From: Mobula hypostoma
Lineage: Eukaryota
DNA length: 64,000 nt
Reading direction: 5' to 3'
Assembly: GCF_963921235.1 (NCBI RefSeq)
Contig: NC_086097.1
Span: 160,954,001-161,018,000, forward strand
A program made the translations under genes and the position numbers. Under the pieces are notes generated by a model. That model saw nothing but the letters and a program-made list of their open reading frames with translations. It did no database searches and was not told the origin of the DNA. Positions 1-35,469 of this stretch are shown here, piece after piece (position 1 is the first letter of the stretch; every line of letters starts with the position of its first letter).

Positions 1-111
1 TTTGGCCCATATCCTGCTAAGCCCCAGTCCTCCATACATCTATTCAAGTGCTTCTTAAACGATACTATTGCACCTGCCTCAACCACTTCTTCTGGCAGCT
101 CATTCCATATA

Positions 112-667
112 CACTCAGTGGCCATATTATTAAGTATCTCCTGTACCTAATAAAGTGGCTAATGAGTGTATGTTTGTGACCCCCTGCTGCTGTAACTTAT
201 TCACTTCAAGGTTCAATGTGATGTGCATTCAGATTTGCTCTTCTGCACATCACTGTTGTAACACACGGTTATTTGAGTTACTGTCACATTCTTGTCAGCT
301 TGAATCAGTCTGGCCACTCACCTCTGAACTCTCTCATTAACAATGCATTTTTGCCCATAGAACTGCTGCTCACGGGATTTTTCTTTTTGTTTTTCACAAA
401 ATTCTCTGTAAACTCTAGAGACTGTTGTACATGAAGATCCCAGGAGATTAGTGGTTTCTGGGATACTCAAACCACAACATTGGGCATCAACAATCATTCC
501 ATGGTCAAAGTCACTTTAATCACATTTCTTCCCCGTTCTGATGTTTTTTTTCTGAACAACAACCGAACCTCTTGACCACATTTGCATGCTTTTATGCATT
601 GAGTTGATCTGCTGATTAGATATTTGCATCAAAGAGTAGGTGTATCTAATAAAGTGGCCATTGAGTG
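112..667. mobile_element. Non-autonomous Tc1/mariner-like element
   Basis: TA flanks (110-111, 668-669); imperfect ~28-bp TIRs CACTCAGTGGCCA.../...TGGCCATTGAGTG; extra inverted TIR copy at ~143-170. Confidence 0.8.
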
Positions 668-724
668 TACATAACAATAGTCAAAACCAATTATCTATGA
701 TATAAATGATGAATAATAAGGGCC

Positions 725-1035
725 CAAACACTGATCCCTGTGGTATATCACCAGTCACCGGCCTCTATTCTGGGAAGTAACTTTCAACCACCACACTCTG
801 CTTCCTATCTATGAGTCAATTTTGAACCCACCTAACTAGTTCTCCCTAAATTCCATGGGGCCTAACATTCCAGATCAGTCTACCATGCAGGACTTGTCGA
901 AGGCCTTGCTAAAGTCCAAGTAAGCAACATCCACTGCCCTACCCTCATCCAATTTTTGGTTACTTCTCTGAAATACTCTAAAAGATCTATTAAGCACAAC
1001 TTCCCACGCAGAAAGCCAAATTGACTCTTCCTCAT
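725..1035 (-). mobile_element. CR1 LINE RT fragment
   Basis: SQFGFLRGKLCL..LLEYFREVT and frameshifted LDFSKAFDK-like motif. Confidence 0.8.
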
Positions 1036-1359
1036 GAAGAGCCAAGATTCAATTACAGTTATTATCAAACAATGTATAAATTATACAACCTTGAGACTTG
1101 CTTGCTCACAGATACAACAAAACAAGAAACCCCAAAGAACCGATTAAAGAAAAAAAGAATAATAATTAAATAATAAATAAATAATTAAAATTAAAAGATG
1201 CACAAGAGAAAGAAAAATATCATACAAACAACTGAAGCGAACATCAGCATTTTGAACCAAAATTGAGTCCTCAGATCCAAACCCCAGAGCAGCCCCCAGT
1301 AGGCTCAAAGCTTCGCTTATCAGTTCAACATCTTAGTGGCCATGGAGCCTGTACTCACT

Positions 1360-2098
1360 AATTTGGGCCGGTATCACTGGAATCTAGAAGAATGCAGTGT
1401 GATCTCATTGAAACCTACCGAGTGTTGAAAGGACTAGATACGGTGAGAAGAGAATGTTTCCTATGGTGGGGGTATCTAGAATTAGAGGACACAGCCTCAA
1501 AACTGAGGAGCGACCTTTTAGAACAGAGGTAAGGAGGAATTTTTTTATCCAGAGTTTAGTGAATCTGTGGAATGCTGGAAGAAGCCTGAAGGCACACACA
1601 CGCAGCAATTTAGGAACAGCTTCTTCCCCTCTGCTATCCAATTCCTAAGTGGACATTGAACCCTTGGACACTACCCCACTACTTTTTTTAATATAGAGTA
1701 TTTCTGTTTTTTGCACAATTTTTAATCTATTCAATATACGTATACTGTATAAAGATTTACTTATTTGTTTATTATTTTATTTCTTTTTTTCTTCTATATT
1801 ATGTATTTCATTGAACTGATGCTGCTAAGTTAACAAATTTCACATCACATGCCGGTGATAATAAACCTGATTCCCATTCTGATTCTGAATGCTCTGCCAC
1901 AGATTAGGGTGAAGGCCTAGTCCATGAGTATATTTCAGGCGGAAGTTGACGGTTTCCTGATCAGTCACAGCATCAAAAGATATGGCAAGAAGGCAGGTGT
2001 ATGGAGATGAGTGGGATCTGGGATCAGCCATGATGGAATGGCAGAGCAGATGATGGGCTGAATGGCCTTATTCTGCTCCTATGTCTGATGGTCTTATG
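1360..2098 (+). mobile_element. CR1 3' fragment interrupted by a Rex1/Babar-like 3' end (1577-1886)
   Basis: GHSLK..RPFRTEVRRNFF; insert ends in (GATTCT)n and is flanked by GAATGCT duplication (1570-1576/1887-1893). Confidence 0.85.
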
Positions 2099-2192
2099 AA
2101 GCACAGCAGCTGAGGCCAAGCCTCAGCGCCGTGGAGGGAAGAGTGCCATCATAGAGAACGAGTAAAATTTGCTCTCATCTCAACTGATACCC

Positions 2193-2421
2193 AGCCTGGT
2201 ATCAGTTTTGCCAATCAACTTTCCAGCTCTTGGCTCCATCCCTCCCCCTCCTGTCTTCTCCTATCATTACGGATCTCCCCCTCCCCCTCCCACTTTCAAA
2301 TCTCTTACTATCTCTTCTTTCAGTTAGTCCTGACGAAGGGTCTCGGCCTGAAACGTTGACTGTACCTCTTCCTATAGATGCTGCCTGGCCTGCTGCGTTC
2401 ACAAGCATATTTTGTGTGTGT
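2193..2421 (+). mobile_element. Penelope-like terminal (pseudo-LTR) insert
   Basis: Same terminus follows GIY-YIG coding remnants at ~23740 and ~55120; TGATACCC duplication 2185-2192/2422-2429. Confidence 0.8.
2326..2361 (+). ncRNA. Minimal type I hammerhead ribozyme motif, core intact
   Basis: AGUC-CUGACGA-AGG-gucucgg-CCU-GAAA-CG-UU-GACU: stem I AGUC/GACU, stem II AGG/CCU, palindromic ACGU in place of stem III, GUU triplet. Confidence 0.8.
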
Positions 2422-4339
2422 TGATACCCTGTCTTTTCAGTTTATCTGGCCCGGCATTTAAATTGACTCAACAGCAGAACAGTGAAAGGCTTCATGCCTG
2501 GAGATAGGAGTGAAGATTGCAGAGGGTGAAAGAAATCAGCTCTCACCTCCCGTCTGGGTCGATGTTTAAGTTGTCTAAACAGCGTTTCATACCTCACACT
2601 AGGACACAGGTACCACTGTTGCGAAAGGCTTCAGGCCTAGACCACGCTGCCTAGCAACTTGCTCCAGGCCCAGATTTTATCGCACAGCCAAAAGCCGCTC
2701 TCAAGCTCTTCAAATCAGCTGAGTGTCCAGAGCAATCCAACTTCGCAGCCGGGCCAGTTGTACAAGCGAAATCGAACTCCTTCTATCCAAATGCTATCCT
2801 TCAAAACTCCCTCTAGTTACTTTCCCACTATTGATGTCAAGCAGAGCGGTCTGTAGTTCCCTTGCTTGTCCTTGCTACCTTTTCTAAACAACAGGACAAC
2901 ATTAAACTAAACAACACCCTGAGCTGTAATTGCACACTTTGGTAGAGTATTGGAAACAGATTTATTTGGCTAAAGTATGAAAGGAGTTGTGTGGTGATTG
3001 CAGGCATAATTCTATATCATGTGCAGACTAGCTACAATTGACTAAGTCAATGTGATTTATTCTAAATACCTTCTCTCTATTTACATTTACGATAATCTGT
3101 GTGATGAATTTTCTCTTTAACCAATACCTTTGTGGGTAAAGGATCTGCTGTCATAAGTAAAATAGGACCTACCACAGAAGACATCTCTTCTGCATCAGCT
3201 AACACAAGACATTACCATCTTCTTATTTCTGGTAAGATAGCGGTGCACTTGGTCGCAATGACAAGACCCTGTTGAACATTGGTAGTACAAAATACTGCAA
3301 GTTCAATTCATTGGATCATTTAGCAAGACTGACGGCAGGGAAGCTGTGTGGCGTTTCCTGTGACAGCCACCCAGGGGAGGAGGCACCCCTGTGTGTGGGA
3401 GAGAACAGAGGTGTGGCGGACGTGCTGGCATCTTTGCTGGGTTGGCGTCACGCCAGCTCTCACATCGATGCTGCTCTCCAGTGTTCATTGCCTGGATTGC
3501 GAGATGAAAAACTGCTGTGTGCTTGTTTTTGCAGGAACGTGGCTCTAGGACAATATCCCATGCACCATTAATCTGTAGGCCATGTCACTCAGGGATTTGT
3601 GCTAATATTGTTTTATGACTGTATGTGCTGTGGGCTGTGTGTGACTACATGTACTGAGTTTTACGCCTTGCCCCTGGAGGAATGCTCTTTGTTTAGCTGT
3701 ATACATGTGTATGGTTGAATGACAATTAAACTTAAACCACTTTCCCTGTCTTGAGAACTACCCCCAGCACAATCAAACATTAATGATAAAATATTCTATT
3801 GCTCTTAATGGATTAGCTTAGTCTTTGGTTGTTTGAGGAAAAGGGTGTTTGAAATTCAAGACCTCAGTCCTAGCATAAAATTATGGTTGGCTGGGCAGCA
3901 TTGACCCCTAACTTCTTACATGCTTACATGCATTACATATAGCAGGGACTTGGAACACCAGAAAGATAACACTGCCTCTGCAAAACCCTCCAAATTCATT
4001 GGAAGAATATGAAAAAGACGACTGCATTTTGGTAGTGATGTCCATAGGGATCCTGAGCTTTGTGAAATAATCTTCATCCTTTAATTCCACTATTATGTTA
4101 AGTAAAGCCATTACTTTGTAAGTGGATTTCTGTTGGAAGTCCTGAACCATGCCCTTCTGGTCATGTACTGACAACTGCAAAGGCACCAGAATTCACACTG
4201 CTATCCAGTTGAGAAGTAAGCTTCAAAGTAAATTTATTATCAAAGTATTTATATGTTATCATATACTACCTTGAAATTCATTTTTACAGGTATTTACGGG
4301 AAAAGTGAAGAATAATAATAGATAATAATAATTATAATC

Positions 4340-5030
4340 ATTTATTTACAAACATATAAAACCCTTTTCATACAAACAATGTAGTCTAAAGTGGTTTACA
4401 ATGGGATAAAGTGTGAACATGAAAATAAAAGACAAAGTGATGTTAGTGAATCGTAAGGATATTAAATAGGTTTTGAGCCAGTGTTTAAAAGTGTCAACTG
4501 AGTCTGTATCCCTTATAGTTTTGGTATTGAGTTCAACAGTTTTGGAATGTAGTTCAAAAAAACTGACCTGCCAACTGTCTTTTGAGGGAGATTATTTAAA
4601 TTTAAGAGTTCAACAGAAAAAGATTCAAGAACTTGAGTGGGGTTATAAAACAAAAGCAATTCTGTGATGTACTCTGGTCCCAAACTATTGAGAGCTTTAA
4701 AACAAAGAAGAAAAATTTAAAATTAATTCTAAAAGATACAGGAAGCTAATGCAGAGGGGTTAGGACAGGAGTTGTATGCCCCCTCATCCTGGTTTTAGTT
4801 AAAATTCTTGCAGCAGCATTCTGAATGAGATGAAGTTTGTCAATTGATTACTTTGGAAGGCCAGTAAAAAGTGCATTGTAGTAATCTAGTCTATTCCATA
4901 TAAAGACATGAATTAGGTTTTCAGCATCATTATGTGACAGAAACGGACGTACCTTTTCAATATTTCTTAAGTGTACAAATGTTGCTCTGGCCACTTTCTT
5001 TATGTGGAATTTAAAATTCAAATAATACAT
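4340..5030 (-). mobile_element. L2 LINE 3' fragment
   Basis: HLRNI.KVRPFLS..DAE.LIHVFI..RLDYYNAL.TGLP; (TTA)n-like tail at the left end. Confidence 0.85.
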
Positions 5031-5429
5031 TAGTATTGATGAAGAACTACATATACATAAACAAAGACTGAATAATAACTAATGTGCAAAAGAGGACAAA
5101 TTATGCAAATAAAAATTAAATGATTCATGAAGATGATTCATCTCACTTGTTCCAGGCATGAGCTGGTTTAATAAACTTTGAACTCTGTAGTATGGTGCTA
5201 TATGGATGAAAGTGAATCAACAGTTCAGTTTGTAACTGTCTTGTTCCGTTTCCATTGAATACATTTAAAGAGTTGTGACTTTGTTGACACTCTGTGGTAT
5301 CGGATAATTCAAAGCCATCTGTTTTCTTTTCTGAAGCACTGGGTTGACATGGACTTTGGAAAATCATTTATGTGGAAGAGCTTTTTAAAAAGAAGAAATT
5401 TCCACCTAACCATCTGCCTTCCTTTCCAG

Positions 5430-5528
5430 GATGATGGGGATACAGTCTTACATGTTTGCTGCAGAAAGAAAGATCTAGAATTGGCTAAACTCATGGTAGA
5501 GCTTGGTGCTGGTGTGGACTTTCAGAAT
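5430..5528 (+). CDS. trpn1: TRPN1/NompC ankyrin exon 1 in window (DDGDTVLHVCCRKKDLELAKLMVELGAGVDFQN)
   Basis: Polypyrimidine tract + CAG acceptor, GTGAGT donor, 99 nt, phase 0/0; matches the NompC repeat recalled as NGDTALHLAARRRDVDMVRILVDYG. Confidence 0.93.
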
Positions 5529-5809
5529 GTGAGTAAGCACAAGTGTAGAACAACTATGAGAAATTACACCATTCCCTTATAATAATAAACACTTAAAACT
5601 AAATATGTGTGGGAGAAATTTTTTCAAATTCATTAGTGGAATGATCAAATTACTGCTACCACATACAAAGATACAAAGTAGTAAATCTATAAGTTATAAA
5701 ATGAAAAAGTTCTACCACATTACGATGCAAAAATTAACTTAAATAAACATTTAAGTACAGCCTAAATAAAGGCTGATTAGGTTAGTGGGCAGGGCATAAT
5801 GAGTGACAG

Positions 5810-6480
5810 GTCATGATTAACCCTGATTTAATTCTTCAAGGAAGTAACAAAACAGACTGATGAAGGCCGAACAGTGGGTGTAGTGTATCTGGATTTTAGT
5901 AAGTCGTTTGACAAGGTTCCCCCATGGAAGGCTCATACAGAAAGTCAGGAGACATGGGATCCAGAGAAATGTGGCTGTGTGGATTCAGAACTGGCTTGCC
6001 TGCAGAGGCAGAGCATGGTCATAGGTGGAATATATTCTGCCTGGAGATCGGTGACTGGTGGTGATCTGCAGGGATCTCTTCTAGGTCTCCTACTTTTTGT
6101 GATTTTTATAAATGACTTAGACAAGGAATTCGAATGGTGGGTAGATGACACGAAGGTTGGTGGTGTTGTGTAGAAGGTTGTCATGGGCTACAACAGGACA
6201 TTTGATAGGATGCAGAGCTGGTCTTAAAAGAGGCAGATGTTTTTCAATCCAGCAGGAAATAGCTAATACAAGAAGGCTTAATTTCAAGGTGATTGGAAGA
6301 AAGTATGGGGAGGATGTCAGAGATAGGTTTTCTCCACAGAGAATGATGGTGCGTGGAATGTGCTGCCAAGGTTGGTGGTAGAGGCACATTAAAGAAACTC
6401 TTGGATAGGCACATGGGTGAAAGAAAGCTGGAAGGCTGTGTGGGAGGGAAGCATTCAGTTGTTCTTGGAGTAGGTTAAAT
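5810..6480 (+). mobile_element. Degenerate CR1 RT/3' fragment
   Basis: VVYLDFSKSFDKVP, QGSLLG..LFVIFINDLD, VDDTKVGG. Confidence 0.85.
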
Positions 6481-6491
6481 TGTGTTCTACT

Positions 6492-7044
6492 TGTAAATCT
6501 CGCTTTGGCTAACAGCTTAATATAAGGGATGATAGCCCCTGGCCCAGCCAAACTTAAGAAATCTCATTTTGGTGGATGCTGTGCGATGTGTCCCCCGTTA
6601 CAAATCAGTACCATAACATAACAAACAGTACACAATATGTGATTAAATAATTGAGCTTTATAATTCTTAATTTGACGATATGGTTAGCAAAGAAAACAAA
6701 AAAAGGGCCGATTCTCATGAAACAGCCTATTGCGCAATGTTGGAACTCACTGATAAGCCGTTTGTCCACCATCGACCTCCTCCGATCGTTGCTGACCTGC
6801 GGACACTCGCTCCATGCCCACTCCGTCCGACGGTCCACCAACTCTTTCCACTCGCGTCTTCTCTCCTCATCTCTCCCCAACAAAAGACCGCGAAACTCTC
6901 TCTTCCAGAACCACAAGAAAGAACAATATTTCTCTCATTGGATAGTCCCCACATGCCAAAGCCCCGTTATCTCTAGTCATAACCCAAACATTGCTGCTAC
7001 AGAGTGTCCATTACATTCGCAGTGAAATCTTACAGCATGTTACA
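6492..7044 (-). repeat. Gypsy 3' LTR
   Basis: Direct repeat of 13128-13686; polypurine tract GGTGGGGGTAGAG (- strand, 7045-7057) abuts it. Confidence 0.95.
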
Positions 7045-8877
7045 CTCTACCCCCACCAAATTTAGTCATGTCCTCATGATGTTGAGATAATTCGCCAACC
7101 CTTCCTGCAAAACACAAAGCCCAATCCAGGTGTAAAAGGCAGTGACATGGCTCCTCAAAATGGTAGGGGTTACACTCTGTTCCCCTGTTGCTACATAGGC
7201 CAGCCTATCTGGTGGTCTCCTAATTCTCTGAGACCTCCGCACCCCTTCATCTATCTCTTCAGGTTCAGACACTACTGTGGATACTTCCGGTCTACCTGGC
7301 GGGGCCTCCCCTGATCTATCATTCGTGCCAACCTGCAACTCAAAGCCCTCTGTTCCGTGATCAAACCCTGCAGAGTCCCACTGTAACCCAGGCTGCCCAC
7401 AGATAGCCCCCACCCCCACTTCATCTGATTCAATGGGAGAAGGACCGGGAGTCTCTTCCCCAATCAATGGGGAGTTAGCAAAAGGCAGTATATACCACAC
7501 ATCCAGGTCCTCATCCTCCGAATCAGTATCCCTCTCAGGGGTTGGGGCCAGCCTAACCTCACCTGTTGGGGGCCCGGTAGTCACCCCCCATTTCTGCAGA
7601 GTCCTCTTACGAGGTGTGGGCTCCAGGTTGGGCTCTGGGTCTACTTGCGCCTCTTGACCCACAGCAACTGGTGGTTCCGATGGAGGATCTTGAGAAGCCC
7701 ATTCCCCTCCTTTGGTTTCACCCGGAAAACTGGTAGGTTTGGCATCTGACTCTCCACCACATAGGGCTTAGCTGCCCAGCAGTTGCCAGCTTATGAGGAC
7801 TCAGTCTCCCGGCAGGAGTTGGGAGGACCTCACCTTTTGATCATTCCTCCTCTTATTCCCTTGATTCTGCTTGGCAGCCGCGAACCCAGCTAATTCATAA
7901 GCCCTTTTCAGCTCTCTTCTCATGTCAGACACAAACTTCAGATAAGTTTTCAGGGTTAAGTCACCCTCGTCAGTCCCAAAACAAAGGCCAATAGGTAACC
8001 TCGCCTCGTGCCCAAACATCAGATAATATGGCGAGCACCCAATTGCTTCATTTTGTGTGCAGTTATAACTGTGAACCAGATGCCCAATATGTTGATTCCA
8101 CCTGGTCTTCTTGCTAATCTCCAGGGTCCCGAGCATGTCTGACAAGGTCCAATTAAACCTCTCTGGCGGGGAATCACCCTGCGGGTGATAGTGCGTGGTC
8201 CTCGACTTCTTGACTCCAAGCATGCCCAGTAACTCATGGATGAGTCTGCTCTCAAAATCCCATCCCTGATCGCTATGTATCTGTCTGGAGAGGCCATAAG
8301 AGATGAAATACTTCTCCCATAACACTTCGGCCACTGTAGACACCCTCTGGTCCTTGGTAGGAAAAGCCTGAGCATATCTGGTGTAGTGGTCTGTGATGAC
8401 TAAGACATTCGCCGTGTTGCTGGCATCAGGTTCTATTGACAGGAAATCCATACACACCAGGTCCAGAGGACCCACACTCTGCAGGTGGGACAAAGGAGCC
8501 GCCCGCGTCGGCAGTGCCTTCCGCCGTATGCATCGAATGCCTGACTTGCAGTATCCTTCGATCTCCAATTTCATTCAGGGCCAGTAAAAAAGGTCCCTGA
8601 ACAATCCATAGGTCTTTTCCACTCCCAAATGTCCAGAATCATCATGAAGTGACTTCAACGCAATCCTCCGATACTTCTCGGGCAAAACCAGCTAGCAACG
8701 CCAAGGTCAGTCCGGAGGTGATGTGACCCAGTATAAGATCTAGTTCTTCAACTCCAACCTAGGCCATTCCTGCAGTAATGGGGGGACCGACGCATGTTTC
8801 ACCTTCTCTGCCTGAGCCATGTCTCCCTTTTCAACTGCTGCCCAAGTGGTACCGATGCCCGGATCATCTCGGTGATG

Positions 8878-10079
8878 ATTTTTTTCCTGTGACAAAAGTA
8901 TGTGCGCACTGAATGCACACATGACACAGTTTATGTAGGTTTACAAAATATTTGACATAAAACTGCACAGAATAACAACAAAATAACATACATATTTAAG
9001 TCACTCAGTTATTTTTTCTCTCTCCTGTCTTTGGAATTTACTTATTCTTTGTAAACTCTATCTAGACTAACAGAACTTCCATTCAATTGATAGCTTTTGA
9101 TTCTCATTAACATATCCAAAGGACATTCACCTAAACAGTTTCTCAGCTTGTTTTTGAGTTGATTCATTAGGCTAAAACCTCACTCACAGTCAGCACTAGA
9201 CACAAGAAAGGTTCCCCCAATGTCCATCAACTGTGCAAGGTCGCAAAACTGTTCATTTTGAAGTACAAATGCCACCATTTGAGTAAAGTTTGAAATCAGT
9301 TTGGATTTAATTTTTTCTTGCAAGGGAAATTTGAAACCATTAAACTGTCTAATTATTACAGTATTTTCAGGTAGAAAATCATGATATTTTAGACATAAGG
9401 CATTAACTTGTTCATCGCCAAATGTGAAGTCACAATCTGCAATTGCGGAGAAATCAAAAGCTGACTATTCTTGTACCTCACCTTCAGGAAACTTTTCTTC
9501 TAAATGAACACAAAGCCTATTTATAAAAGTCAACAGCAAACTTGTAACTACTGTGACGTTTTCTTCACGTTGTTGGCCTAGCAAAACTTTAACTTTGTCA
9601 TTCCACAAAACATTGTCTCCCAGATACTGCTTTCTTATCTTGTTAATTTTGCCTCGCGCAAATCAAATTTGCAATTCTTTTGCGCTTCACGCCCTTCACT
9701 TCTTTTGAATTTGACATAGTGAATCAATATTTTTTCAATAAAAACTTAGTAAGCTATCTACAAGATTTGAAACAGATCTTTGTAAACTTTACGATATGAA
9801 CATTGTCCGCCAAACATGGCTGCCGCCGTGAGGCAGCTGTACAAACTGGAACAGGAATGGTGAGGTGACATAAATTAATGACGTGGATTGTGGTATTTGA
9901 AAAACTGACTAACTAGTTAACAGAAACAGGTAGCGAAAAGATTATTTTCAATAAGTATAATTATTAATTACTACATTATTTTAGGTAACTAACCTTTTAT
10001 AAGCACATTAATTTCCTTTGTGCACTGGTTGAAAAATGTGAGTGCACGCACACATGTGCACAGCTTGGAGGGATCAGTG
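8878..10079 (-). mobile_element. hAT DNA transposon remnant nested in Gypsy pol
   Basis: AT-rich insert; - strand ~9090-9240 reads GTFLVSSADCE*GFSLMNQLKNKLRNCL..LDMLMRI (hAT C-terminal dimerisation domain); TIR-like CAGCTTGGAGGGATCAGTG at the right end only. Confidence 0.8.
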
Positions 10080-13000
10080 TTCTCCACCCTCCTGTCCTTT
10101 TTCCCCCCTCCCTTTCTTCCCCAAGGGAGGGTAACCACACAGAAGCTGATTCAATGGGTGACTCACTTTCACGTAGCCTTTCACAAACCTCCGTAGTAAC
10201 CACAGAACCCGAGGAATGAGCTCAGAGCACTCACAGTCTGGAGTCTTGGCCATGTGGTTACCACCTCTATCTTAGCCGAAAATGTAGGTACTCCATCCCG
10301 TGAGACTATGTGCCCAACATAGCTAACAGACGTTTGACAGAACTGGCACTTGCCAAGGGAAAGTTTTAACCCTTCAGCTTTCAGGCAGCCCAGCACCTTC
10401 AGCAGCCTCACTTCATGTTCTTCCAAGGTGGATCCGAACACTATGAGGTCATCCAGATACACCAATACCTCAAGCATGTTCATATTCCCCACCGTCTTCT
10501 CCATGAACCGCTGGAAGTTTGCAGGAGCTCCTGAGATGCCCTAGGGCGTCCTTTCAAACTGGAAAAATCCCAGGGGACATATAAATACCATTTTCTCTTT
10601 GTTGGCCTCACTCATGGGGATCTGGTAATATCCACTCCTCAAGTCCAGCACACTGAACCACTTCGCACCACTCAGGCAGGCCAGTGCATCTTCAATCCTC
10701 GGGACAGTATACTGGTCAGGGACGGTGCGAACATGCATCCATACATTCCCATTCTTCTTTCTAGCCAGTACTACTGGGGATGCATAGGGGCTTCAGGACT
10801 CAGTGATGATCCCAGCTTCCTTCAACTTTCACAAGTGCTGCCGAACATCCTCCGCCTCTGCAGGAGCCAGTTGCCGAGACCTCTGTCCTCGGTCACCCAG
10901 ATAGAGTGACACATGCTCTTGGAACAACCAACATCAAACTCGTCAGTGGAAGAGACACCTTCCAGTTTCAAAATCTTCTCTACCAACCTCCTCTTCCAAC
11001 CCAGAGGAACCGGGGAGTCCCTGAAGTTGAATGACTCAGTCAACTTTCCCCCTTTTTCCAATAGTTTCTCCCCGGCGTGTCTCACAGGGACACTAGACAT
11101 TACCATTACTGGGAACAGAAGCACCAGGGGCATCCTCGGCTTGAAGGTGACCTCCCTCTTCATAGTATTCCTGACAATCACTGCCATCCTGCTTGCCTGT
11201 ACAATTGAAGGCTTCTGCAATTCAGGCCTCACCAGTACACCAGCAGGAAATCCTGACTCACCCTCATGGTCTTTCAGAGTATCCACTAAGAGGGCCTTGC
11301 TCTCAGGCTTGCAGGAAATTTGGGGGTCCCCATCAATCTCGCTACTTCCCCGGGCCGTACTACCATTGGCTTTGACTGGGTGAACCACACAAACCCTCGT
11401 CTAAATTCAGTATCTAGCCTAATGCAGCCACGCACTTCCTCAAAAGCAGCTCGAAACCCCAAGTGCGCAGACAATGTTCCCAGAAAGCTCTCTCCAGCTT
11501 CCTCCTTGCAGGCCCTTATGAGTCTCCTCACAAGAGGGGTGTTGGTCCCCACCAGAATTGAAACGCCACCCTTCTCAACAGGGTCCGGACAAACCAGCGC
11601 CAATGTATCAAGAATCTCAGACACTCCCACATCAGCCTCCAAGAATTCCAACTTCACTGACAAATAACTGTCGTATGGATAATCATTAGCACTAAGCCCC
11701 AAGATCTCCAGTGCCCTGAATGCGGTCAAGGGTAAATGCTTCAAATACCAGTTGTAAAACAAACAGTACAACAACGTGACCTGCGACCCAGTGTCGATTA
11801 TGGCTTTAGCATAAATACCCTCTATCTGTAGCGACACACTGGAGCATGGACCCACTAAGCCTTCAGGAATTGGGCCTTTTGCTTTCGGGGGTTCCTTAGT
11901 ACATTGTTCCACCAGACACACCAGGCTGTTCCCTCACTGGGTCTCCTCTGTTTTCCCAAGGACTTCCTCTGCTTAAGTACCCGGGGGCTCACTCTCCATC
12001 TGGCGTGACACCTGCTGCCAGCAGCTCTCCACGTTGTTTGTCCCCTTGGGGGATCCACCCCCCCCCATCAGCTCCATCATATGGGGGGGGGTCACACCCG
12101 CTGATAACAGCTGACATATCTCCGTTCTCAACTCTGCCACAGTCTCCTCTACCGCTCCATGGGGCAGGCTACCTGTGGTCACTTCACCGCAGGGAACTAC
12201 TACCAAGGACTGTACCCTGCTGACTGAGTCCTTCCACGCCGCCGCTGCGTTCTCCTCTTCCTGTACCTCTCTGATCAGCTCAACAAAAGAAAGAGGGGGG
12301 TGCATCTTATGAGATTGTCAGAGATCCCAAGCAATCAGGTCATGGGACTGGACACCCCTGGCTATCTGGTCCATTCTTAACTGATCCACCTCAGCCGCCT
12401 GAATGACCCCTCTGTGCTGCGAGCAATTTAGCTGCTTCTCTAGCCGAAAAATAAAAGCAGAAAGCTTCTCCCCCTTCTCCTGACGCATGTTCTGGAACCC
12501 CACCATGAGCTCCATTGGGCTTCCTGTTGGGCCAAAAGGTTGCTAGGGGATATTTTAACCTGAAGGCTGTCACAACGTCAGCAGCCCGCCCATTCAAACT
12601 CTCAACCAATATCTGTTGCTTTTCATCATCAGAGCACTGCCACTCATCTAACAACTGAGAGGTCCACTCCGCCCAAGTCTCATACTCCTCCTCCCCTTTA
12701 GGGGTGGGCGTTATTCCAGAGAATAGGCGGAGCCTACCATAGCTGGGACTTTGAATTTGAGTTTTCCATTTATTCGCCAGAGAGGTAAGGACGGATACTA
12801 CCCCAGAATTCTCACTCTTCACCGGGGGGGACATGGACTAATTAGACATCCCAAATCCAACGACTCTTTCCCCTCACTCCTCAGAAACGTTAGAGCCCTG
12901 TCTTTGAAATCTCCACCACCAGCTACCACTACCTCAGCGCTGGTCTGTGTTAAAACAAGAGCTGCGCCAACCATTTTATCAAACCTCCACCCACAATTGC

Positions 13001-13105
13001 AACTTTAACATTATTTAACAGGCGAATTAACAATTCATCTGGAGTACAGATATCTATCCCACAGGTTCGATGCGCCGGTTAATCATATAGCATCTACCAG
13101 AATCA

Positions 13106-13123
13106 ATCACGGACGAGCCCCCA
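13106..13123 (-). promoter_or_regulatory. Primer-binding site for tRNA-Pro
   Basis: - strand TGGGGGCTCGTCCGTGAT, 17/18 to the canonical tRNA-Pro PBS TGGGGGCTCGTCCGGGAT. Confidence 0.9.
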
Positions 13124-13127
13124 GAAT

Positions 13128-13686
13128 TGTAATTCTCGCTTCGGCTAGTGGCTTAATATAAGGGGTGATAGCCTCTGGCCCAGCTAAACTTAAGGAATCT
13201 CGTTTGGGTGGACGCTGCGTGATGTGTCCCCTGTTACAAATCAGTACCATGAAATAACAAATAGTACACAACATGTGATTAAGCGATTGAGCTTTATAAT
13301 TCTTAATTTGACTATATGGTTGGTAAAGAAAACAAAAAAAGGAAAAGGGCCCATTCTCATGAAACAGTCTATTGCACAATGTTGGAGCTCCCTGATAAGC
13401 CGTCTGTCCACCATCGACCTTCTTCGATCGTCGCTGACCTTTGAACCCTTACTCCAAGCCCACTCCGTCCAGTGGTCTACCAACTCTCTTCATTCTCGGC
13501 TTCTCTCCTCATCTCTACCTGGCAAAAGACCGCAAAACTCTCTCTTCTGGACTCACAAAAAAGAACAAAATTTCTCTCATTGGATAGTCCCCACATTCCA
13601 AAGCACCATTATCTCTAGTCATAACCCAAACATTGCTGCTACAGAGAGGCCACTACATTAGCAGTGAAACCTTACAGCGTGTTACA
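13128..13686 (-). repeat. Gypsy 5' LTR
   Basis: TG...CA ends; followed on the - strand by the PBS. Confidence 0.95.
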
Positions 13687-17581: not shown

Positions 17582-18679
17582 GTATTTCCACAACTCAAAC
17601 ATCGATAAGCTTCAACTGTAACTAAGTGAGCAGAATCTACGAAAAGATTAGGTGCCTCGTGTTCTGAACAGGACAAGTAAGATTCTCACAAACATATCTA
17701 AATGGTGGCCAGTGAACTATCAACCAGTCCATCAATCCAATCCGACAAAAACTGTCTGAGCATCAGGAATCAATAATCAAAAACGGCAGGTACTGGAAAT
17801 TGGAAATAAAAACAGGAAGTGTGCGAGTCTCTCAGCAGGTCAGGCAGCATCTATGGAAGAAAATAATGCTTTTGGTTTTGAAAGGCTTTGTCAGAACTCC
17901 AAAATAAAATTGGGATAATAACATTGGATTATATAGACTTTTATGGTGATTTATTGTAATTTGGATCAATGGTACTCCTCCCACTATCCCATAAATTTAT
18001 ATTAAAATTTCCACATATCTTCACAACTCAGAAGAAAGCCATTCAGCCTGTTGAGTGAATGCCAGCTCTCAGCAATCCATTTTCCCTTGATCTTTCCTGT
18101 ATTTCCTCCCCCACCCACCTGCATGCCTTTGGGATGTGGGAGAAAACCCACATGGTCACAGGGAGAATATGTAAACTCCTTTCAGACAGCACCAGAGGTT
18201 GTGATTAAACCTGGGTAGCTGGATCACTGAGACAGTGGCTCAATTGGCTGGGCCACCCACAACATCCTACACAAGCAACTTTGATGTGTGTTGCTTGAAT
18301 TTCCAGCATCTGCAGAATTCCTGTTGTTTGCGTTTAAACATCCTACGCAAGATTATTTTAGGCAAGTTATAGCTGAGTGCAGCAAGAGGCATAGACAAGC
18401 AAAAAAAAAGTGCAATAATTTTGGAAAAAGTTGTAGTAGAAAATAACACGGCCCCTTTTAACTGAAAGATAGTCAGGATTGCCAATATTACCATGTGGTC
18501 ACTAGATGGCAGCAAATGTTTAAGATTGGAGATTCACCCACAGCTCAGGCATTGAACTCCAGTAAACAATCCTGAATGTTCTTCAGGATAGGAAATCTGC
18601 TATTATCCAAATCTACCATCACCTGTATGTGTCTGATGTACCACTGATATGGTTGGTGCTTAATAACCTCCATCATCTC

Positions 18680-20022
18680 CCAGCTATTACCCAGTAGCAT
18701 TCACATCTATGGTGATGAAATGCTTTGAGAGGTTGGTCATGGCTAGAATGAACTCCTGCCTCAGCAAGGACCCGGGCGCACTGCAATTTGGTTATCGCCA
18801 TAATAGGACTACAGCAGACACAATCTCAACGGCTGTTCTCACGGCCTTAGATCACCAGGTCAATACAAACAACCATGTCAGGATGCTGTTCGTTGACTAT
18901 AGCTCAGCGTTTATCACCATTTCTCCCCCAGTCCTGATCAATAAGCTACTGAACCTGGACCTCTGTACCTCCGTATGCAATTGGATCCTCGACTCCCTAA
19001 CCGGAAGACCACAGTCTGTGCGGATTGGTGATAACATATCCTCCTCGCTGACGATCAACACTGGCGCATCCCAGGGGTGCGTGCTTAGCCCACTGCTCTA
19101 CTCTCTATGTACCCATGACTGTGTGGCTAGGCATAGCTCCAATACTATCTATAAGTTTGCTGATGATACAACTTTGTTTGTAGAATCTCAGATAGAGATG
19201 AGTGGGTGTACAGGAGCAAGATATACTAGCTAGTTGAGTGGCGTCACAGCACAAACCTTGCAGTCAACGTTAGTAAGACCAAAAAGCTGATTGTGGACTT
19301 CAGGAAGGGTAAGACGAGGGAACGTGAACCAATCTTCATAGGGGGATCAGAAGTGAAGAGAGTGAGTAGTGTGAAGTTTCTGAGCATCAAGATCTCTGAG
19401 GATCTAACCTGGTCCCAATGCACTGATGCAGCTATAAAAAAGGCAAGACAGTGGATATGTCTCATTAGGAGTTTGAAAAGATTTGGTTTGTCACCTAAAA
19501 CACCCAAAAGCTTCTATAGATGCACCATGGAGAGCATTCTGATAGGCTACCTGGTATTGTGGGACCACTGCACAGGACCGAAAGAAGCTACAGAAAGTTG
19601 TAAAGTTAGTCAGCTTCATCTTGGGTACTAGCCTTTGCGTTATCCTGGACATCTTCAAGGAGCGGTGCCTCAGAAAGGCAGCATCCATTATTAAAAACCC
19701 AGGGCATGCCCTCTTCTCATTGTTACCATCAGGAAGGAGGTACAGAAGTCTGAAGGCACACACTCAGCGATTCAGGAACAACTTCTTCCCCTCTGCCATA
19801 TGATTCCTAAATAGATACAGAACCCAGGAACACTACTTCATTTTTAAAATTTATATTACTTCTGTTTTTGCACTATTTTTAATCTATTTAATGTACACAT
19901 ATATAATTACGGTAACTGGTTCGCTTAATTTTTCTTTTTGTGTTATCATGTATTGCATTGTACTGCTGTAGCTAAGTTAACAAATTTCATGACATATGAC
20001 GGTGATAATAAACTTGATTCTG
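18680..20022 (+). mobile_element. Rex1/Babar-like LINE RT + 3' end
   Basis: MKCFERLV, VRMLFVDYSSAF, QGCVLSPLLYSL, KFADDTT, LLPSGRRYRSL, GATTCT tail. Confidence 0.9.
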
Positions 20023-22760: not shown

Positions 22761-22829
22761 ATTATGGTTAAAATACGCATTGTAAGTTGAGGGGTCTATT
22801 CATGCTCTCATCTTCTCTCAGGAAGATGC

Positions 22830-24045
22830 TTTTCATTCTAGAACGAAGGAGGTGTCCTCCTTTTTCAAAGGAAGGAGCTTCATTCCCTCCACCATCAATG
22901 CTGCCCTCAACCACATCTCTTCCATTTCATGCATGTCTGCCCTTACCCCATCCTCCTACTACCCTACCAGGGATAGGGTCCTCTTGTCCTCACATACCAC
23001 TCTGCAAGTCTTCACATCCAGCACATAATTCTGCAAAACTTCTGCCACCTCCAACTGAATCCCGCCAGTAAACACATCTTTCCCTCCTCCCCACTTTCTG
23101 CTTTCCACAGAGATCGCTCCCTACGCGACTCCCTTGTCCATTCGTCCCTCCCCACTTATCCTTGCACATGGAACAAGTGCAACATTTTCCCCTACACCTC
23201 CTCCCTCAGTAACATTCAGGGCCCAAAACAGTCTTTACAGGTAAGGTGAGTCTGTTGGGGTCATATACTGTGTTCGGTGCTCCCGGTGTGGCCGCTTGCA
23301 TATCGGTGAGGCCCAATGTAGATTAGGAGACCGCTTCGCTGAGCACCTACAAGCTGTCTGCCAGAAGAAGTGTGATCTCCCAGTGACCACCCGTTTTAAT
23401 TCCACTTCCCATTCCCATTCCAATATGTCCATCCATGGCCTCCTCCACTGTCGGGATAAGACCACACTTGGGTTGGAGGAACAACAACACCTTATATACC
23501 ATTTGGGTAGCCTCCAACCTGATGGCATGAACATCGATTTCTTAAACTTCCAGTAATGCCCCTCCCCTCTTTCACCATTTCCCATCCTTTTGCCCCTCTC
23601 TCATGTTATCTCCTTGCCCACCCATTGCCTCCCTCTGGTGCTCCTCCCTGCCCCCCTTTTCTTTCTTCCATGGCCTTCTGTCCCTCCAAGTTTCAGCTAT
23701 CACCTGACGTTTCCTTCTCCCCTCCCCCCACCTTTCTTTCTCCAGTCCTGCCAAGGGGTTTCAGCCCAAAACGTTGACCGCACTTTTTTCCATAGATGCA
23801 GCCTGGCCTGCTGAGTTCCTCCAGCATTTTGTGTGTGTTGCTCAGATTTCCAGCATCTGCAGATTTTCTCGTTTTTGGGTCTATTCCTGTGTTATTTTCC
23901 ATGTTCTGTAACAAAACGTAAAGTAAGATCCAGAAAAATGCAGATGCTGGAAACCTGAAGTACACACAGAGAATGCTAGAAATACTTAGTAGCTGTGGAA
24001 AGAAAAACAGTTTATATTTCAGCTCCAAGACCCTCCATCAGAACA
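22830..24045 (+). mobile_element. Penelope-like element 3' half (GIY-YIG remnant + terminus), followed by an inverted terminal copy
   Basis: IYCVRCSRCG.LHIGE..CRLGDRFAEHL..HFN..HSH..EEQ.HLI..LGSLQPDGMNIDF; decayed hammerhead at ~23743-23780. Confidence 0.88.
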
Positions 24046-27249: not shown

Positions 27250-28200
27250 CAGAATCTGAATCAGAATCAGGTTTATTATCACCGGCATGTGACATGAAAT
27301 TTGTTAACTTAGCAGCAGCAGTTCAATGCAATACATAATCTAGCAGAGAGAGAGAATATACTAATAATAATAAATAAAATAAAACATAATAAATAAAGAA
27401 AGAAAGTATATTGAATAGATTTTTAAAAATGTGCAAAAACAGAAATACTTAATATTTTAAAGAGTGAGGTAGTGTCCAAAGCTTCAACATCCATTTACGA
27501 ATTGGATGGCAGAGGGGAAGAAGCTGTTCCTGAATCGCTGAGTGTGTGCCTTCAGGCTTCTGTATCTCCTACCTGATGGTAACAGTGAGAAAAGGGTACT
27601 CGCTGGGTGCTGGACGTCCTTTATAATGGACACTGCCTTTCTGAGACACTGCTCCCCAAAGATGTCCTGGGTACTTTGTAGGCTACTGCCCAAGATGGAG
27701 CTGACTAGATTTACAACCTTCTGCAGCTTCTTTTGGTCCTGTGCAGTAGCCCCTCCATACCAGACAGTGATGCAGCCTGTCAGAATGCTCTGCACAGTAC
27801 AACTATAGAAGTTTTTGAGTTTATTTGTTGACATGCCAAATCTCTTCAAACTCCTGATAAAATATAGCCGCTGTCTTGCCTTCATTATGACTACATCGAT
27901 ATGTTGGTACCAGGTTAGATCCTCAGAGATCTTGACACCAAGGAACTTGAAGCTGCTCACTCTCTCCACTTCTGATCCCTCTATGAGAATTGGTATGTGC
28001 TCCTTCGTCTTACCCTTCCTGAAGTCCACAATCAGCTCTCTCGTCTTACTGACGTTGAGTGCCAGGTTGTTGCTGCGGCACCATTCCACTAGTTGGCATA
28101 TCTCACTCCTGTACGCCCCCTCGTCACCATCTGAGAATCTACCAATGACGGTTGTATCGTCAGCAAATTTGTAGATGGTATTTGATCTATGCCTAGCGTG
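27250..28200 (-). mobile_element. Rex1/Babar-like LINE 3' fragment, 240-aa frame still open
   Basis: KFADDTTVIG..NVSKTRELIVDFRK..FKFLG..LLPSGRRYRSL; (GATTCT)n tail. Confidence 0.92.
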
Positions 28201-28874
28201 TGGCATAACTGAAAATAATGAGTAGCCCTCAAGAGAGGCAGAATTTCAGAGACTTACATCTCTGAGTAAAGAACTTTCTCAGTCCTAACATGGGATTAAT
28301 GTAGAATTGCTGGAAGGTCAGTGTGCCAAAGAGCCTGTTTCCATTCTGTATGACTTATTCCCTTCCACTGACTGGCCCCTTATCATGAGACATTGCCCCC
28401 CCGTTCTCAGGTGATGGGAGTAGATCTTTGGCGTTGACACTGTCATTCCCCCCCAGATTCTGAGCACAAGGTTTCAGGCCCAAGCGCATATGGTGGCCTG
28501 AAACAGATTGCCTGCAATGCAAATTCAGGAGCCACAGATGAATTCAATCACTCAACAGTGCTTCCTAGTGACAGGTGGTTAACATCAACAGCCGTATGTG
28601 CAGCTTGTGCCATCCTAAAGACATCTGAGCCAAGGGTCTAAAGACAGGAAAAAAAATGAAGTGGGCAGTGCAGGCACATGCCTTTAACATATTATAGATT
28701 CCATATTAAATGGAGATATGATACGTTCACAGGCCCTAATTTATATTATAGCAAACTTTCTGAATTCCTGATATAAGTCAATTGAACTGAGAGTGGGGTC
28801 TTACTACTAATGCTTCACCTTCCTTCAAAGATTGAACCATTACTCACCACTCAAGTCCTCTTCACGTCGGTAGC

Positions 28875-30992: not shown

Positions 30993-31348
30993 GCCAAATT
31001 GAATACAAGAAGGCTGAAATTTACATAATTGGAAGATTAGCTTCTATTTCCCCAGCTGCTCTGAGATTCATTGGAGGAGTGTGGGATATTAGATTGGTTG
31101 TGGAATGAAAAATTAGAACAAAAGACAACTGGAAGCTCATAGATGTCTTTCCAGACTGAATAACAGCCTCTCCAAGGCTGAAACCCTCAATGTGTTTGGT
31201 TTTCCCAAAATGGTTAAGTGCTTATCACAATTATCAAGTGAAGTACTTCTACTCAGAAGTGACAATAATTCATTATTGGAAGAGCATTTGTGGACAAGTA
31301 TGCAGGAAGGGAGAAGGTAAAAGGAGAAGAGAACTGACATCTTCTACA

Positions 31349-31542
31349 CTCACAACACACTGGAGGAACTCAGCAGGTTGGGCAGCATCCGTGGAAACGA
31401 TCAGTCAACATTTCGGGCCAGAACCCTTCCGGCCCGAAACGTTGACTGAATGTTTCCACGGATGCTGCCTGACCTGCTGAGTTCCTCCAGCGTGTTGTGA
31501 GTATTGCTTTGACCCCAGCATCAGCAGGGTATTTTGTGTTTA
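31349..31542. mobile_element. Fold-back Penelope-derived mini element
   Basis: ~155-bp near-palindrome of the Penelope terminus; perfect 14-bp TSD TGACATCTTCTACA (31335-31348/31543-31556). Confidence 0.88.
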
Positions 31543-33485: not shown

Positions 33486-33731
33486 AGCAACACACACAAA
33501 ATGCTGAAGGAACTTAGCAGTCCAGGCAGCATCTATGGAAAAGAGTAAACAGTCAACGTGTTGGGCCAAGACCCTTCGTCAGGACAGATGAAGGGTCCTG
33601 AAGAAAAGTCTCGGACCGAAACATCGACTGTTTACTCTTTTCCATAGATGCTGCCTGGCCTGCTGAGTTCCTCCAGCATTTTGTGTGTGCGTTGCTTAGA
33701 TCGCCACAGTCTGCAGATTTTCTCGTCTTTG
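33486..33731. mobile_element. Fold-back Penelope-derived mini element with two opposed decayed hammerheads
   Basis: ~100-bp inverted arms; TSD TGCCAGGGCAGGTCA/TGCTAGGGTAGCTCA (12/15). Confidence 0.82.
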
Positions 33732-35236
33732 TGCTAGGGTAGCTCAGTGCGTTGAGACCCTTAATGAGGACTGAGGATCAGTCCTGGTGAATGATCTCAG
33801 ACCATAATGTCAAGAATTCCTTTTTCCCCTACTCTCAGTTCTGATGCAGGGTCTCAACCCGGAACATCAACAATTTTCCTCTCCTCCACAGATGTTGCTT
33901 AACCTGCTGAGTTCCTCCAGCAGTTTGCTTTTTATTCCAGATTCCAGCATCTACAACCTCATGTGCATCCTCATAAGTAAAATGTTCTGCACCCTCTCTG
34001 ATGCTAGTGTGGAGACCAGAACTACATATAGTACTACACCTGAGATCTGACCAAGACTCTTTAAAGCTGGACCATAACTTCTGTGTTATTGTATCAATAC
34101 CCTGACTTGTGAAGGGCAACATCGCATATTCCATCTAAACTACTTTATCTTCCTGTGCTGCTAGCTTCAAGAATCTAATAACTCACAAACTGAGGTCCCT
34201 CTGTTCCTCAATACCCATTATGACCTTACTATTCACAATATATATCCTGCCCTCAGTAGTACTCCATCTGCTATTTCTCAGCCCATTTTATCATCACATC
34301 CATATCGCCTGAAGATTGACCCTATCCTCCACACTGTTAACAACTCTGCTGATCTTAGTATTATCTGTGAGGTTACTGATCACATCATCAGCATCTACAT
34401 TCAAATCATCCACATATAACTGAGCATTCCACACTCCTACCTAATGCTGAGTACAGCAACTTCTACAGAATACTCTATTTCATATATTAGGGATCACCTC
34501 CTTTTTCTGACCCCAAAACAGCAATTTTGTTTATAGATCAACATTTGTAAAATGCTTTAAAGTTTGTGAACCTGTAGCAAAACATCCACAAGATTTCTTC
34601 TTTCTACATGAAAGAACCCATGCAGTTCTCATAATTTCACTTTTTCAGTTTTAATATAAATCTTATTAATATAGTTTATGAGTAACACACACAAAATGCT
34701 GGAGCAACCCAGGTCAGACAGCATCTATGAGGAGGAATAATTTCGGGACATTTTGGGACAAGACCTTTCATGAGGACTGGAAGGAGGGGGGAAGAAGACT
34801 GAATACAAAGGTGGGGAGGGGGAGGGCAAGATGGCAGGTGAAAGGTGTAAAGGGTACATTTTGTACATGGCACAGCGCATGCACTGTCTGGTGATAGTGA
34901 TGGTGGATGGGCTGCTTTCTTATGTATGGCATCAAGCTTCTTGAGTATTGTTGGTGCTACATCCAGGCAAGTGAAGGTATCTGTCATGCTGCTGATTTAT
35001 GCCACGTAGATGCTGGAAAGATTTTGGGGGATCAGGAATCAGGAGCTGAGTCTTTTACAGTAGGGTCCCAGTTTCTGACATTCAAATTTACAAGTTCAAA
35101 GTAAATTTATTATCAAAGTACATCTATGTCACCATATACAACCATATACCATACATCACTGATCTAGTAATGTTTAATGCTAGCCACCAGGGTGATGATT
35201 AAGGTGGGAAGAACAAAATGGGATAAGTGTAGAATG

Positions 35237-35400
35237 CAAACAACAGGAATTCTGCAGATGCTGGAAATTCAAGCAACAGATATCAAAGTTGTGTGGACAG
35301 TCCTGACGAAGGATCTCGGCCTGAAACGGCGACTGTACCTCTTCCTAGAGATGCTGCCTGGCCTGCTGCGTTCACCAGCAACTTTGATGTGTGTTGCTTG
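35237..35400 (+). mobile_element. Penelope-derived mini element with inverted termini and hammerhead motif (35297-35336)
   Basis: TSD AGTGTAGAATG (35226-35236/35401-35411); ACAGTC-CTGACGA-AGG..CCT-GAAA-CG-GC-GACTGT. Confidence 0.85.
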
Positions 35401-35469
35401 AGTGTAGAATGAATGTAATTGGGTGCTTGATGGTTAGTGGTTAGTCAATGAATTGAAGAATCTATTTCT

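What the first reader, a model, noticed from the sequence alone, without database searches (positions are those of the whole stretch)
2326..2361. Core-intact minimal hammerhead ribozyme on the sense strand of the TRPN1 locus
Seen: all conserved core bases (CUGAnGA, GAAA, UH), closing stem I AGUC/GACU, stem II AGG/CCU and a palindromic ACGU instead of a real stem III. Established: Penelope-like retroelements carry such minimal type I hammerheads in their pseudo-LTRs, and these cleave mainly as dimers. Inference: TRPN1's earlier ankyrin exons must lie upstream, so this motif is probably transcribed in the pre-mRNA, with predicted cleavage after GUU (2357/2358).
Basis: partly seen in the sequence, partly recalled or inferred. 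Interest (0 to 1): 0.72.

Follow-up and report, generated by a model that had tools for sequence, protein, structure and literature searches.

The report
Penelope hammerhead relic in TRPN1 intron
This is a real copy of the tiny hammerhead RNA motif that Penelope-type jumping genes are already known to carry, left by one cut-short insertion of a very abundant repeat in what is likely an intron of a ray's TRPN1 gene; it has no intact partner copy nearby and is predicted to rarely cut the host RNA, so it is most likely ordinary.

Summary
The motif is real. Window 2326-2361 (+) has every core base of a minimal type I hammerhead. It sits in a ~220-bp, 5'-truncated 3' end (pseudo-LTR) of a GIY-YIG Penelope-like retroelement, with a candidate 8-bp target duplication. 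The window holds 16 related pieces, and tens of thousands of contigs per sequencing run match it. TRPN1 is on +, and residues 1-190 are missing from window 1-5429, so the motif is likely intronic and on the sense strand.

It probably does little. Most family copies have C at the cut site where this one has U (a likely CpG mutation). Catalytic CpG positions decay as fast as loop positions across copies. The other 15 pieces lack an intact motif. The hammerhead fold is predicted at about 1% in context. Published Penelope minimal hammerheads were inactive alone or needed the element's protein, and slow intronic cuts reportedly spare splicing. Cleavage was not tested.

This scan noted the same kind of relic before (15 findings, at least 11 genomes). 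Verdict: new member of a known kind, low interest.

The parts
2206..2424 (+). 5'-truncated 3' end of a Penelope-like retroelement: part of the 3' UTR plus the pseudo-LTR, without the optional tail. Ends are approximate.
   Evidence: Summed contig depth 1e6-1e7 across this span against 11-18 in the unique flank; family sequence continues differently before 2206. Similarity to copies that follow a GIY-YIG frame, e.g. 2212-2424 vs 58295-58085, 72%, E 4e-20.
2185..2192 (+). Candidate target-site duplication, left copy (8 bp). It lies inside a 9-bp inverted repeat (2182-2190 / 2199-2207) at the 5' junction.
   Evidence: Seen directly; 13 nt lie between it and the element. No empty allele was seen.
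2422..2429 (+). Candidate target-site duplication, right copy, at the element's 3' end
   Evidence: Same 8 bases as 2185-2192. A contig of organism B (run X5) spanning 2373-2720 bridges this junction.
2301..2327 (+). Pyrimidine-rich tract (18 of 20 nt in 2301-2320) ending in CAG/TAG, the U-rich leader of the motif; resembles a 3' splice site
   Evidence: U-rich leader is in the published consensus; splice use was not tested.
2326..2329 (+). Hammerhead stem I, 5' strand (extendable by U2325·G2362)
2330..2337 (+). Core C3-A9 (2330-2336) plus the unpaired A between 9 and 10.1 (2337)
   Evidence: matches consensus CUGANGAH
2338..2349 (+). Stem II, 4 bp with two G·U pairs and a 4-nt loop; 10.1-11.1 is G·U
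   Evidence: C at 2349 in 24-75% of family depth by run.
2350..2357 (+). G12-A13-A14-A15.1, palindrome 2353-2356 in place of stem III, U17 at 2357; predicted cut 2357/2358
   Evidence: The family letter at 2357 is C in 64-94% of depth.
2358..2361 (+). Hammerhead stem I, 3' strand
5430..5528 (+). First TRPN1 exon in the window (one ankyrin repeat, residues 191-223 of P0006); defines the host intron's 3' end
   Evidence: Pfam Ank E 7.7e-6
22810..23880 (+). Longer copy of the same repeat family: decayed RT-C-terminal/GIY-YIG frame ending at 23556, broken hammerhead at 23744 (188 nt later), and a ~35-nt tail. Nearest well-scoring same-strand copy, 21.4 kb away.
35226..35412 (+). Closest sister copy (89 of 98 nt identical): inverted tail plus pseudo-LTR starting at stem I (35299), flanked by an 11-bp direct repeat. 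U16.1 is changed, so the core is broken.

Best explanation
The 36-nt motif is a minimal type I hammerhead carried in the pseudo-LTR of a short, 5'-truncated copy of an abundant endonuclease-bearing Penelope-like retroelement (likely Neptune-type) that inserted on the sense strand of what is likely a TRPN1 intron of a ray, and it is predicted to cut the host pre-mRNA rarely and without effect on the gene. How it arose (inferred): the element's RT copied its RNA from a fixed internal start about 65-70 nt past the cut site, stopped after about 220 nt, and was joined at a nick that left an 8-bp duplication. In an active element the motif likely works as a cross-paired dimer (palindromic ACGU forming a shared stem III) or with help from the element's protein. 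Here it is a passenger that mutates like the surrounding DNA. Shown: sequence anatomy, repeat membership, link to a GIY-YIG frame in sister copies, TRPN1 strand, CpG-type variation. Inferred: intron position, inactivity, lack of effect on splicing.
For: Repeat: 16 profile hits in the window, 9 on + and 7 on -. 65,928 contigs were laid from run X1 on 2100-3300 and 34,945 from X5 on 2296-2400. Penelope link: copies at 23744, 55121 and 58181(-) follow frames matching ray proteins P0121/P0123. Those proteins carry YIDD RT motifs, a CX4CXXC linker and GIY-YIG (Pfam E 4.6e-4 to 2e-3, below the curated cut-off, in 3 of 4 proteins scanned). Shared 3' end with an optional ~35-nt tail, and inverted pseudo-LTR junctions, match published PLE anatomy (PMC8557442, PMC3846280 passages; PMC11167929). 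Neutral decay: inside 2326-2361 nearly all letters varying at 3% or more are CpG-type transitions. G8 G>A is 7.7/2.0/3.6/3.7% and G16.2 is 12.5/5.5/6.1/9.9%, against loop 2344 at 7.3/1.9/3.3/6.5% and loop 2345 at 9.8/3.4/4.8/9.1% (runs X5/X11/X12/X17). U17 here is a minority letter: C in 83/93/94/64% of depth and in 7 of 12 aligned window copies. No partner: only this site of the family passes the descriptor. Folding: stems I and II at about 0.01-0.02 once 30 nt or more of flank is included. The hammerhead-shaped dimer scores -8.9 kcal/mol against -16.8 for two misfolded monomers and -25.1 for the best homodimer. Literature: a monomeric min-HHR had no detectable cleavage and dimers were weak (PMC4209133). 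The anole PLE HHR cut only with the PLE protein, and no RNA-seq ends lay at the cut site (PMC11167929). Introns cut by a slow hammerhead were still spliced (as reported in PMC2995048).
Against: This copy is the only one of 16 window pieces with a complete core and stems. U17 and G10.1·U11.1 both occur in published natural members, so nothing in it is clearly fatal. Nearest-neighbour folding ignores core tertiary contacts, co-transcriptional folding and proteins. The insertion appears shared with a second organism label (X5 contig over the 3' junction), which is compatible with fixation, though the two differ by only 0.7-2.6% in the contigs shown. (93% likeness, 10% cut-off) did not list the 2349 or 2357 variants that (80%, 3%) showed; I could not explain this fully. 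Depth shares are contig-weighted and are not copy counts. No cleavage or RNA-end data exist for this locus.
Confidence: 0.85

Rival explanations
1. The motif cuts a measurable share of TRPN1 pre-mRNA in cells, helped by the Penelope protein supplied in trans or by pairing with another transcribed copy, but splicing largely survives.
For: Core complete and on the sense strand. The anole PLE HHR is protein-assisted. The family is very abundant and its stem I strands are cross-compatible.
Against: Poor predicted folding and an unfavourable dimer. No intact partner in the window. The copy keeps only 67 nt beyond the cut site, while the anole protein needed the first 172 nt of its ORF for activity (transfer to this family is an assumption). 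No RNA ends at the cut site in anole RNA-seq.
Confidence: 0.08
2. A domesticated intronic ribozyme that regulates TRPN1 output or isoforms, like the conserved RECK intronic hammerhead of amniotes.
For: Intact core in a sense intron. The 3' junction is shared with organism B. A precedent exists (PMC6155905 passages).
Against: Young insertion, 91% identical to a sister copy. No helix III. It carries a CpG-type change at the cut site. Sense and antisense copies are 9 vs 7. No deep conservation was seen; organism C coverage did not bridge the junction.
Confidence: 0.02
3. A unit of a separate non-autonomous retrozyme/SINE-like family rather than a truncated Penelope end.
For: Short, non-coding and very abundant. 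Some contigs show short head-to-tail jumps from 2360-2364 back to 2326. Retrozymes were reported in one chondrichthyan and linked to pLTRs (bioRxiv 10.64898/2026.07.22.740005 passages).
Against: No tandem array here. Copies share the 3' end but have variable 5' ends, some reaching into the GIY-YIG frame. The hammerhead is minimal, not canonical.
Confidence: 0.04
4. A chance look-alike of a hammerhead within a repeat.
For: No Rfam match. Fold z-score -0.12. Covariation not significant.
Against: Descriptor hits in 18 of 1000 shuffles. It sits at the pseudo-LTR position where PLE hammerheads are published. Loose ends of divergent family contigs cluster at the motif's edges (2326-2328 and 2360-2363), as expected if the motif is what subfamilies share.
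Confidence: 0.01

Closest known systems
Minimal type I hammerheads (min-HHR) in pLTRs of metazoan Penelope-like elements (Cervera and De la Pena 2014, PMC4209133; main text parts 1-2 of 4 and supplement file 2 parts 1-2 of 3 read)
   Same: Core, unpaired base before stem II, palindromic 15.2-16.2 with no helix III, short helix I, U-rich leader, position in the 3' pLTR of truncated copies, thousands of solo copies per genome.
   Different: Stem II is at the short end (4 bp, two G·U; 7-8 bp in the S. mansoni families). No cartilaginous fish appears in the Fig. S3 rows or Table S1 that I read. Copy load appears higher than the 4,000-9,000 reported for coelacanth and Xenopus.
Poseidon PLE of Anolis carolinensis (PAc; Frangieh et al. 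2024, PMC11167929; parts 1-2 of 4 read)
   Same: Hammerhead in the pLTR, 3' ends of insertions fixed a short way downstream of it, optional tail.
   Different: The relatives here have a CX4CXXC linker, a Neptune trait per PMC8557442 passages. The 3' end region here is GU-rich on the sense strand, not AC-rich. Protein-assisted cleavage was shown for PAc only.
Conserved intronic type I hammerheads of amniotes (RECK, CTCL, DTNB; PMC6155905 passages)
   Same: A type I hammerhead in a host intron on the sense strand.
   Different: Those are canonical and deeply conserved at one locus. This is a minimal motif inside a young, high-copy insertion.
Non-LTR retrozymes of animals (bioRxiv 10.64898/2026.07.22.740005, passages; PMC7229834, search listing only)
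   Same: Short hammerhead-bearing repeats related to pLTRs.
   Different: Defined as tandem units. This copy is solitary, with a variable 5' end.

Membership tests
min-HHR of PLE pLTRs | Core CUGANGA, GAAA and UH | tested here: met
   2330-2336, 2350-2353, 2356-2357
min-HHR of PLE pLTRs | Unpaired base between 9 and 10.1, helix II closed by a 10.1-11.1 pair | tested here: met
   A2337 unpaired, G2338·U2349. The consensus is G-C, but G·U occurs in published rows (cichlid, Latimeria 1, Xenopus 1, Lottia 1).
min-HHR of PLE pLTRs | Palindromic 15.1-16.1 segment without helix III; short helix I | tested here: met
   ACGU 2353-2356; helix I 4-5 bp
min-HHR of PLE pLTRs | Located in the pLTR downstream of a PLE RT-EN ORF | tested here: met
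   Homologous copies lie behind GIY-YIG frames (188 nt after the stop for the 23744 copy); this copy shares the 3' UTR
min-HHR of PLE pLTRs | Stem covariation across copies | tested here: inconclusive
   12 of 16 window copies: one compensatory C-G to U-A change in stem I (2 of 12); covariation score reached by 366 of 500 shuffles
min-HHR of PLE pLTRs | Self-cleavage as dimer or with protein | not testable with these tools
   No assay possible; only contig data were available
EN+ Penelope-like elements | Single ORF with RT followed by GIY-YIG endonuclease | tested here: met
   Met in family relatives P0121-P0123 and decayed window copies. Absent from this truncated copy.
EN+ Penelope-like elements | 5' truncation, pLTR, optional 30-40 bp tail, inverted pLTR junctions, short TSD | tested here: met
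Neptune clade | CX2-5CxxC Zn-finger linker between RT and EN | tested here: met
   Seen in P0121, P0122, P0123, P0126; definition from PMC8557442 passages
Neptune clade | RT phylogeny with reference clades | not tested
   No named reference PLE proteins were fetched
Non-LTR retrozymes | Tandem repeat units each with a hammerhead | tested here: not met
   No tandem array at the site; single copy
Domesticated intronic hammerheads (RECK type) | Canonical helix III | tested here: not met
   No helix III
Domesticated intronic hammerheads (RECK type) | Deep orthologous conservation | tested here: inconclusive
   Junction bridged only in a close relative (X5); X10 pieces shown do not bridge it
Rfam hammerhead families | Score at the gathering threshold | tested here: not met

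The most novel reading that the evidence does not exclude
In rays, tens of thousands of sense-strand intronic Penelope hammerheads, this TRPN1 copy among them, form a latent cutting network. When the element's RT-EN protein is expressed it switches them on in trans and severs host pre-mRNAs, here that of a mechanosensory channel, so that retroelement activity tunes host gene output.
Probability: 0.04. Interest if true: 0.65.

Novelty: new member of a known kind. Interest (0 to 1): 0.12.

Why it matters
As one copy it matters little: the motif class, its home in Penelope pseudo-LTRs and its dispersal as solo relics were published in 2014. The ray family is a convenient test set for an open question, namely whether minimal Penelope hammerheads cut in vivo at all, because intact and broken copies lie in both orientations inside host introns. 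If protein-triggered cutting of host pre-mRNAs were shown, it would be a new way for a retroelement to act on host genes.

Tried and rejected
Rfam at gathering threshold (whole window) and at E<=10 (2100-2600) found no hammerhead family; the three weak matches are chance. No whole genome is held for this window, so a genome-wide orientation or decay test was not possible. A degenerate family motif found 0 stretches in metagenome contigs. Pfam on the two decayed window GIY-YIG frames gave 0 families; the link came through homologues. Search for TRPN1 residues 1-190 in window 1-5429 gave only 5-8-residue chance matches.

Expression: no RNA holder listed. A depth-2 contig at 2435-2703 in run X11 (RNA only by guess) is not taken as evidence. 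Contigs cannot show RNA ends, so cleavage at 2357/2358 could not be examined.

Covariation was not significant in either register (366 and 203 of 500 shuffles). Four of the 16 profile hits were left out of that alignment (31429-, 31422+ lack the 5' core; 33778+, 42744+ are weak). Lunse et al. (PMC5785218) is not held; I saw only its title in a reference list. No rate ranking of GUC against GUU was found in the passages read (one search lists GUU as cleavable), so no claim of slower cutting rests on a call. Look-up of earlier findings by sequence was empty.

Full report
Observation. The motif is as described: stem I 2326-2329/2358-2361, core 2330-2336, GAAA 2350-2353, palindromic ACGU 2353-2356 and U17 at 2357. 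A relaxed minimal-hammerhead descriptor found this site and one weak site near 7973 (-) in the window, and hit 18 of 1000 shuffles. A core-only pattern gave 2 matches against 0.08 expected. Rfam does not recognise it and its folding energy is unremarkable (z -0.12), which is expected for a motif without helix III.

Host gene. A homologue search with an ankyrin exon returned chondrichthyan TRPN1 first (94-98% identity). Stingray TRPN1 (P0006) maps to 12 stretches on + at 82-100% identity, from residue 190 at 5427 to residue 716 at 56451. The first exon, 5430-5528, has canonical splice borders, and residues 1-190 are not in 1-5429. The motif is therefore likely in the intron before this exon, on the sense strand, provided the gene and assembly are intact upstream.

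The element. The motif is part of a repeat. A profile of 8 window copies found 16 pieces, 9 on + and 7 on -. Laying contigs of public runs gave summed depth of 1e6-1e7 over about 2206-2424 against 11-18 in the unique flank, with 65,928 contigs laid from X1. The tool warns that depth is not copy number, so I say only 'very abundant'. Three longer copies follow decayed frames that match ray proteins with RT motifs, a CX4CXXC linker and a GIY-YIG domain. Pfam GIY-YIG scored just under its cut-off in 3 of 4 proteins. That domain order and linker mark an endonuclease-positive Penelope-like element, Neptune-type by the linker (PMC8557442 passages); no tree was built. Copies share one 3' end, some add a ~35-nt tail, and several form inverted junctions. 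This is the anatomy described in PMC3846280 (passages) and explained by internal RT initiation in PMC11167929. The copy at 2326 has a candidate 8-bp target duplication and its sister at 35299 an 11-bp one. One contig of a second organism label bridges the 3' junction, so the insertion seems to predate a recent split.

Is this copy special? It is the only one of the 16 pieces with complete core and stems. In the four runs laid at 80% likeness, however, each core position matched this copy in at least 87% of depth, apart from 2357 and the free position 2334, so intact cores are likely common genome-wide. Variation inside the motif is almost all CpG-type. Catalytic G8 (2.0-7.7%) and G16.2 (5.5-12.5%) change about as often as loop positions 2344 and 2345 (1.9-7.3% and 3.4-9.8%), which fits neutral decay after insertion. 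At 2357 the family has C in 64-94% of depth and in 7 of 12 aligned copies, so the U here is probably such a mutation. U at 2349 is the majority in three of four runs and is a subfamily trait. Against over-reading this: U17 and G10.1·U11.1 both occur in published members, and at stricter settings did not list either variant. Loose ends of family contigs cluster at 2326-2328 (660, 290 and 219 in X5) and at 2361-2363 (130, 111, 485; best-supported rows only). This suggests the motif is the part that divergent subfamilies share, i.e. kept in active elements, but it may also include real 5' junctions. Covariation among 12 window copies was not significant.

Mechanism. A minimal hammerhead needs a second copy to build stem III from the palindrome, or a helper. 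In PMC4209133 the monomer showed no cleavage and dimers and trimers were weak at 10 mM Mg2+. In PMC11167929 the anole motif cut only when the element's protein was present, cutting was dispensable for insertion in vitro, and no RNA-seq ends lay at the site. A review (PMC6765202 passages) agrees that rates are very low even for dimers. Here the nearest well-scoring same-strand copies are 21 kb and 31-33 kb away and are broken. With 30 nt or more of flank, stems I and II fall to about 0.01-0.02 probability, partly because 2318-2323 pairs with 2348-2353 (0.16-0.32; 0.53-0.61 in a 71-nt window). The hammerhead-shaped dimer (-8.9 kcal/mol) loses to two misfolded monomers (-16.8) and to the best homodimer (-25.1). 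These are nearest-neighbour estimates without tertiary contacts. Even if it cut slowly, introns cleaved by a hammerhead were still spliced whereas a fast HDV ribozyme blocked splicing (Dye 2006 and Fong 2009 as summarised in PMC2995048, passages). The most likely reading is a passenger that rarely cuts and does not affect TRPN1 (0.85). Rivals: helper-dependent cutting without much consequence (0.08), a separate retrozyme-like unit (0.04), domestication (0.02), chance (0.01).

Novelty. The kind is known since 2014. I did not find this ray family in print. Searches: hammerhead ribozyme + Penelope + shark gave 1 paper, where 'shark' refers only to the name. Hammerhead ribozyme + Chondrichthyes gave 5, one reporting tandem retrozymes in one chondrichthyan. 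Penelope + elasmobranch + genome + transposable elements gave 4 listings. No cartilaginous fish appears in supplement file 2 of PMC4209133. Its file 1, the bioRxiv supplements, Lunse et al. (not held) and repeat databases could not be seen and may already list the family. This scan's own notes record the same relics in 15 findings from at least 11 genomes; they are unchecked AI notes, seen after my reading was fixed, and are not counted as support. Verdict: new member of a known kind, interest 0.12.

Noticed in passing
window 2301-2328: A pyrimidine tract ending in CAG (2321-2323) and TAG (2325-2327) directly before stem I looks like a 3' splice site. In D. virilis Penelope the pLTR intron ends at the 5' end of helix I. 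On the TRPN1 sense strand it could act as a cryptic acceptor.
   Followed up: partly
window 2326-2328 (family contigs); copies at 35299, 33595, 33586(-): Many family contigs and three window copies begin at the 5' edge of stem I rather than at the cut site, and some contigs jump from 2356-2364 back to 2326 (short head-to-tail duplications). Subfamily divergence, RT stalling, a start site or splicing could each explain it.
   Followed up: partly
window 33486-33696 and 31345-31509: Head-to-head palindromic pairs of the same pseudo-LTR (87-91% complementary arms), the second joined inside stem II; all four motifs are broken or partial.
   Followed up: partly
window 6491-13634 (-): LTR retrotransposon with two ~500-bp LTRs 86-88% alike and frameshifted gag/pol frames; integrase Pfam rve E 9e-13. 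Ty3/gypsy-like by appearance (label recalled). It lies in the next TRPN1 intron.
   Followed up: no
window near 7973 (-): Second descriptor hit with only 3-bp stems, inside the integrase frame; probably chance.
   Followed up: no
window 18667-19631, 27484-28245, 52435-53282, 57082-57871: Several decayed non-LTR RT fragments of one type in both orientations (RVT_1 weak plus ALKBH8_N on 27487-28245).
   Followed up: no
window 47255-47770 (+): 171-codon open frame with no Pfam match; it resembles a DNA-transposon nuclease N-terminus by eye (recalled, untested).
   Followed up: no
proteins P0123, P0125: Two ray proteins named 'divergent protein kinase domain 1C isoform X2' and 'mucin-2 isoform X2' match the Penelope endonuclease frame at 67%; these look like gene models built on or through Penelope copies.
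   Followed up: no
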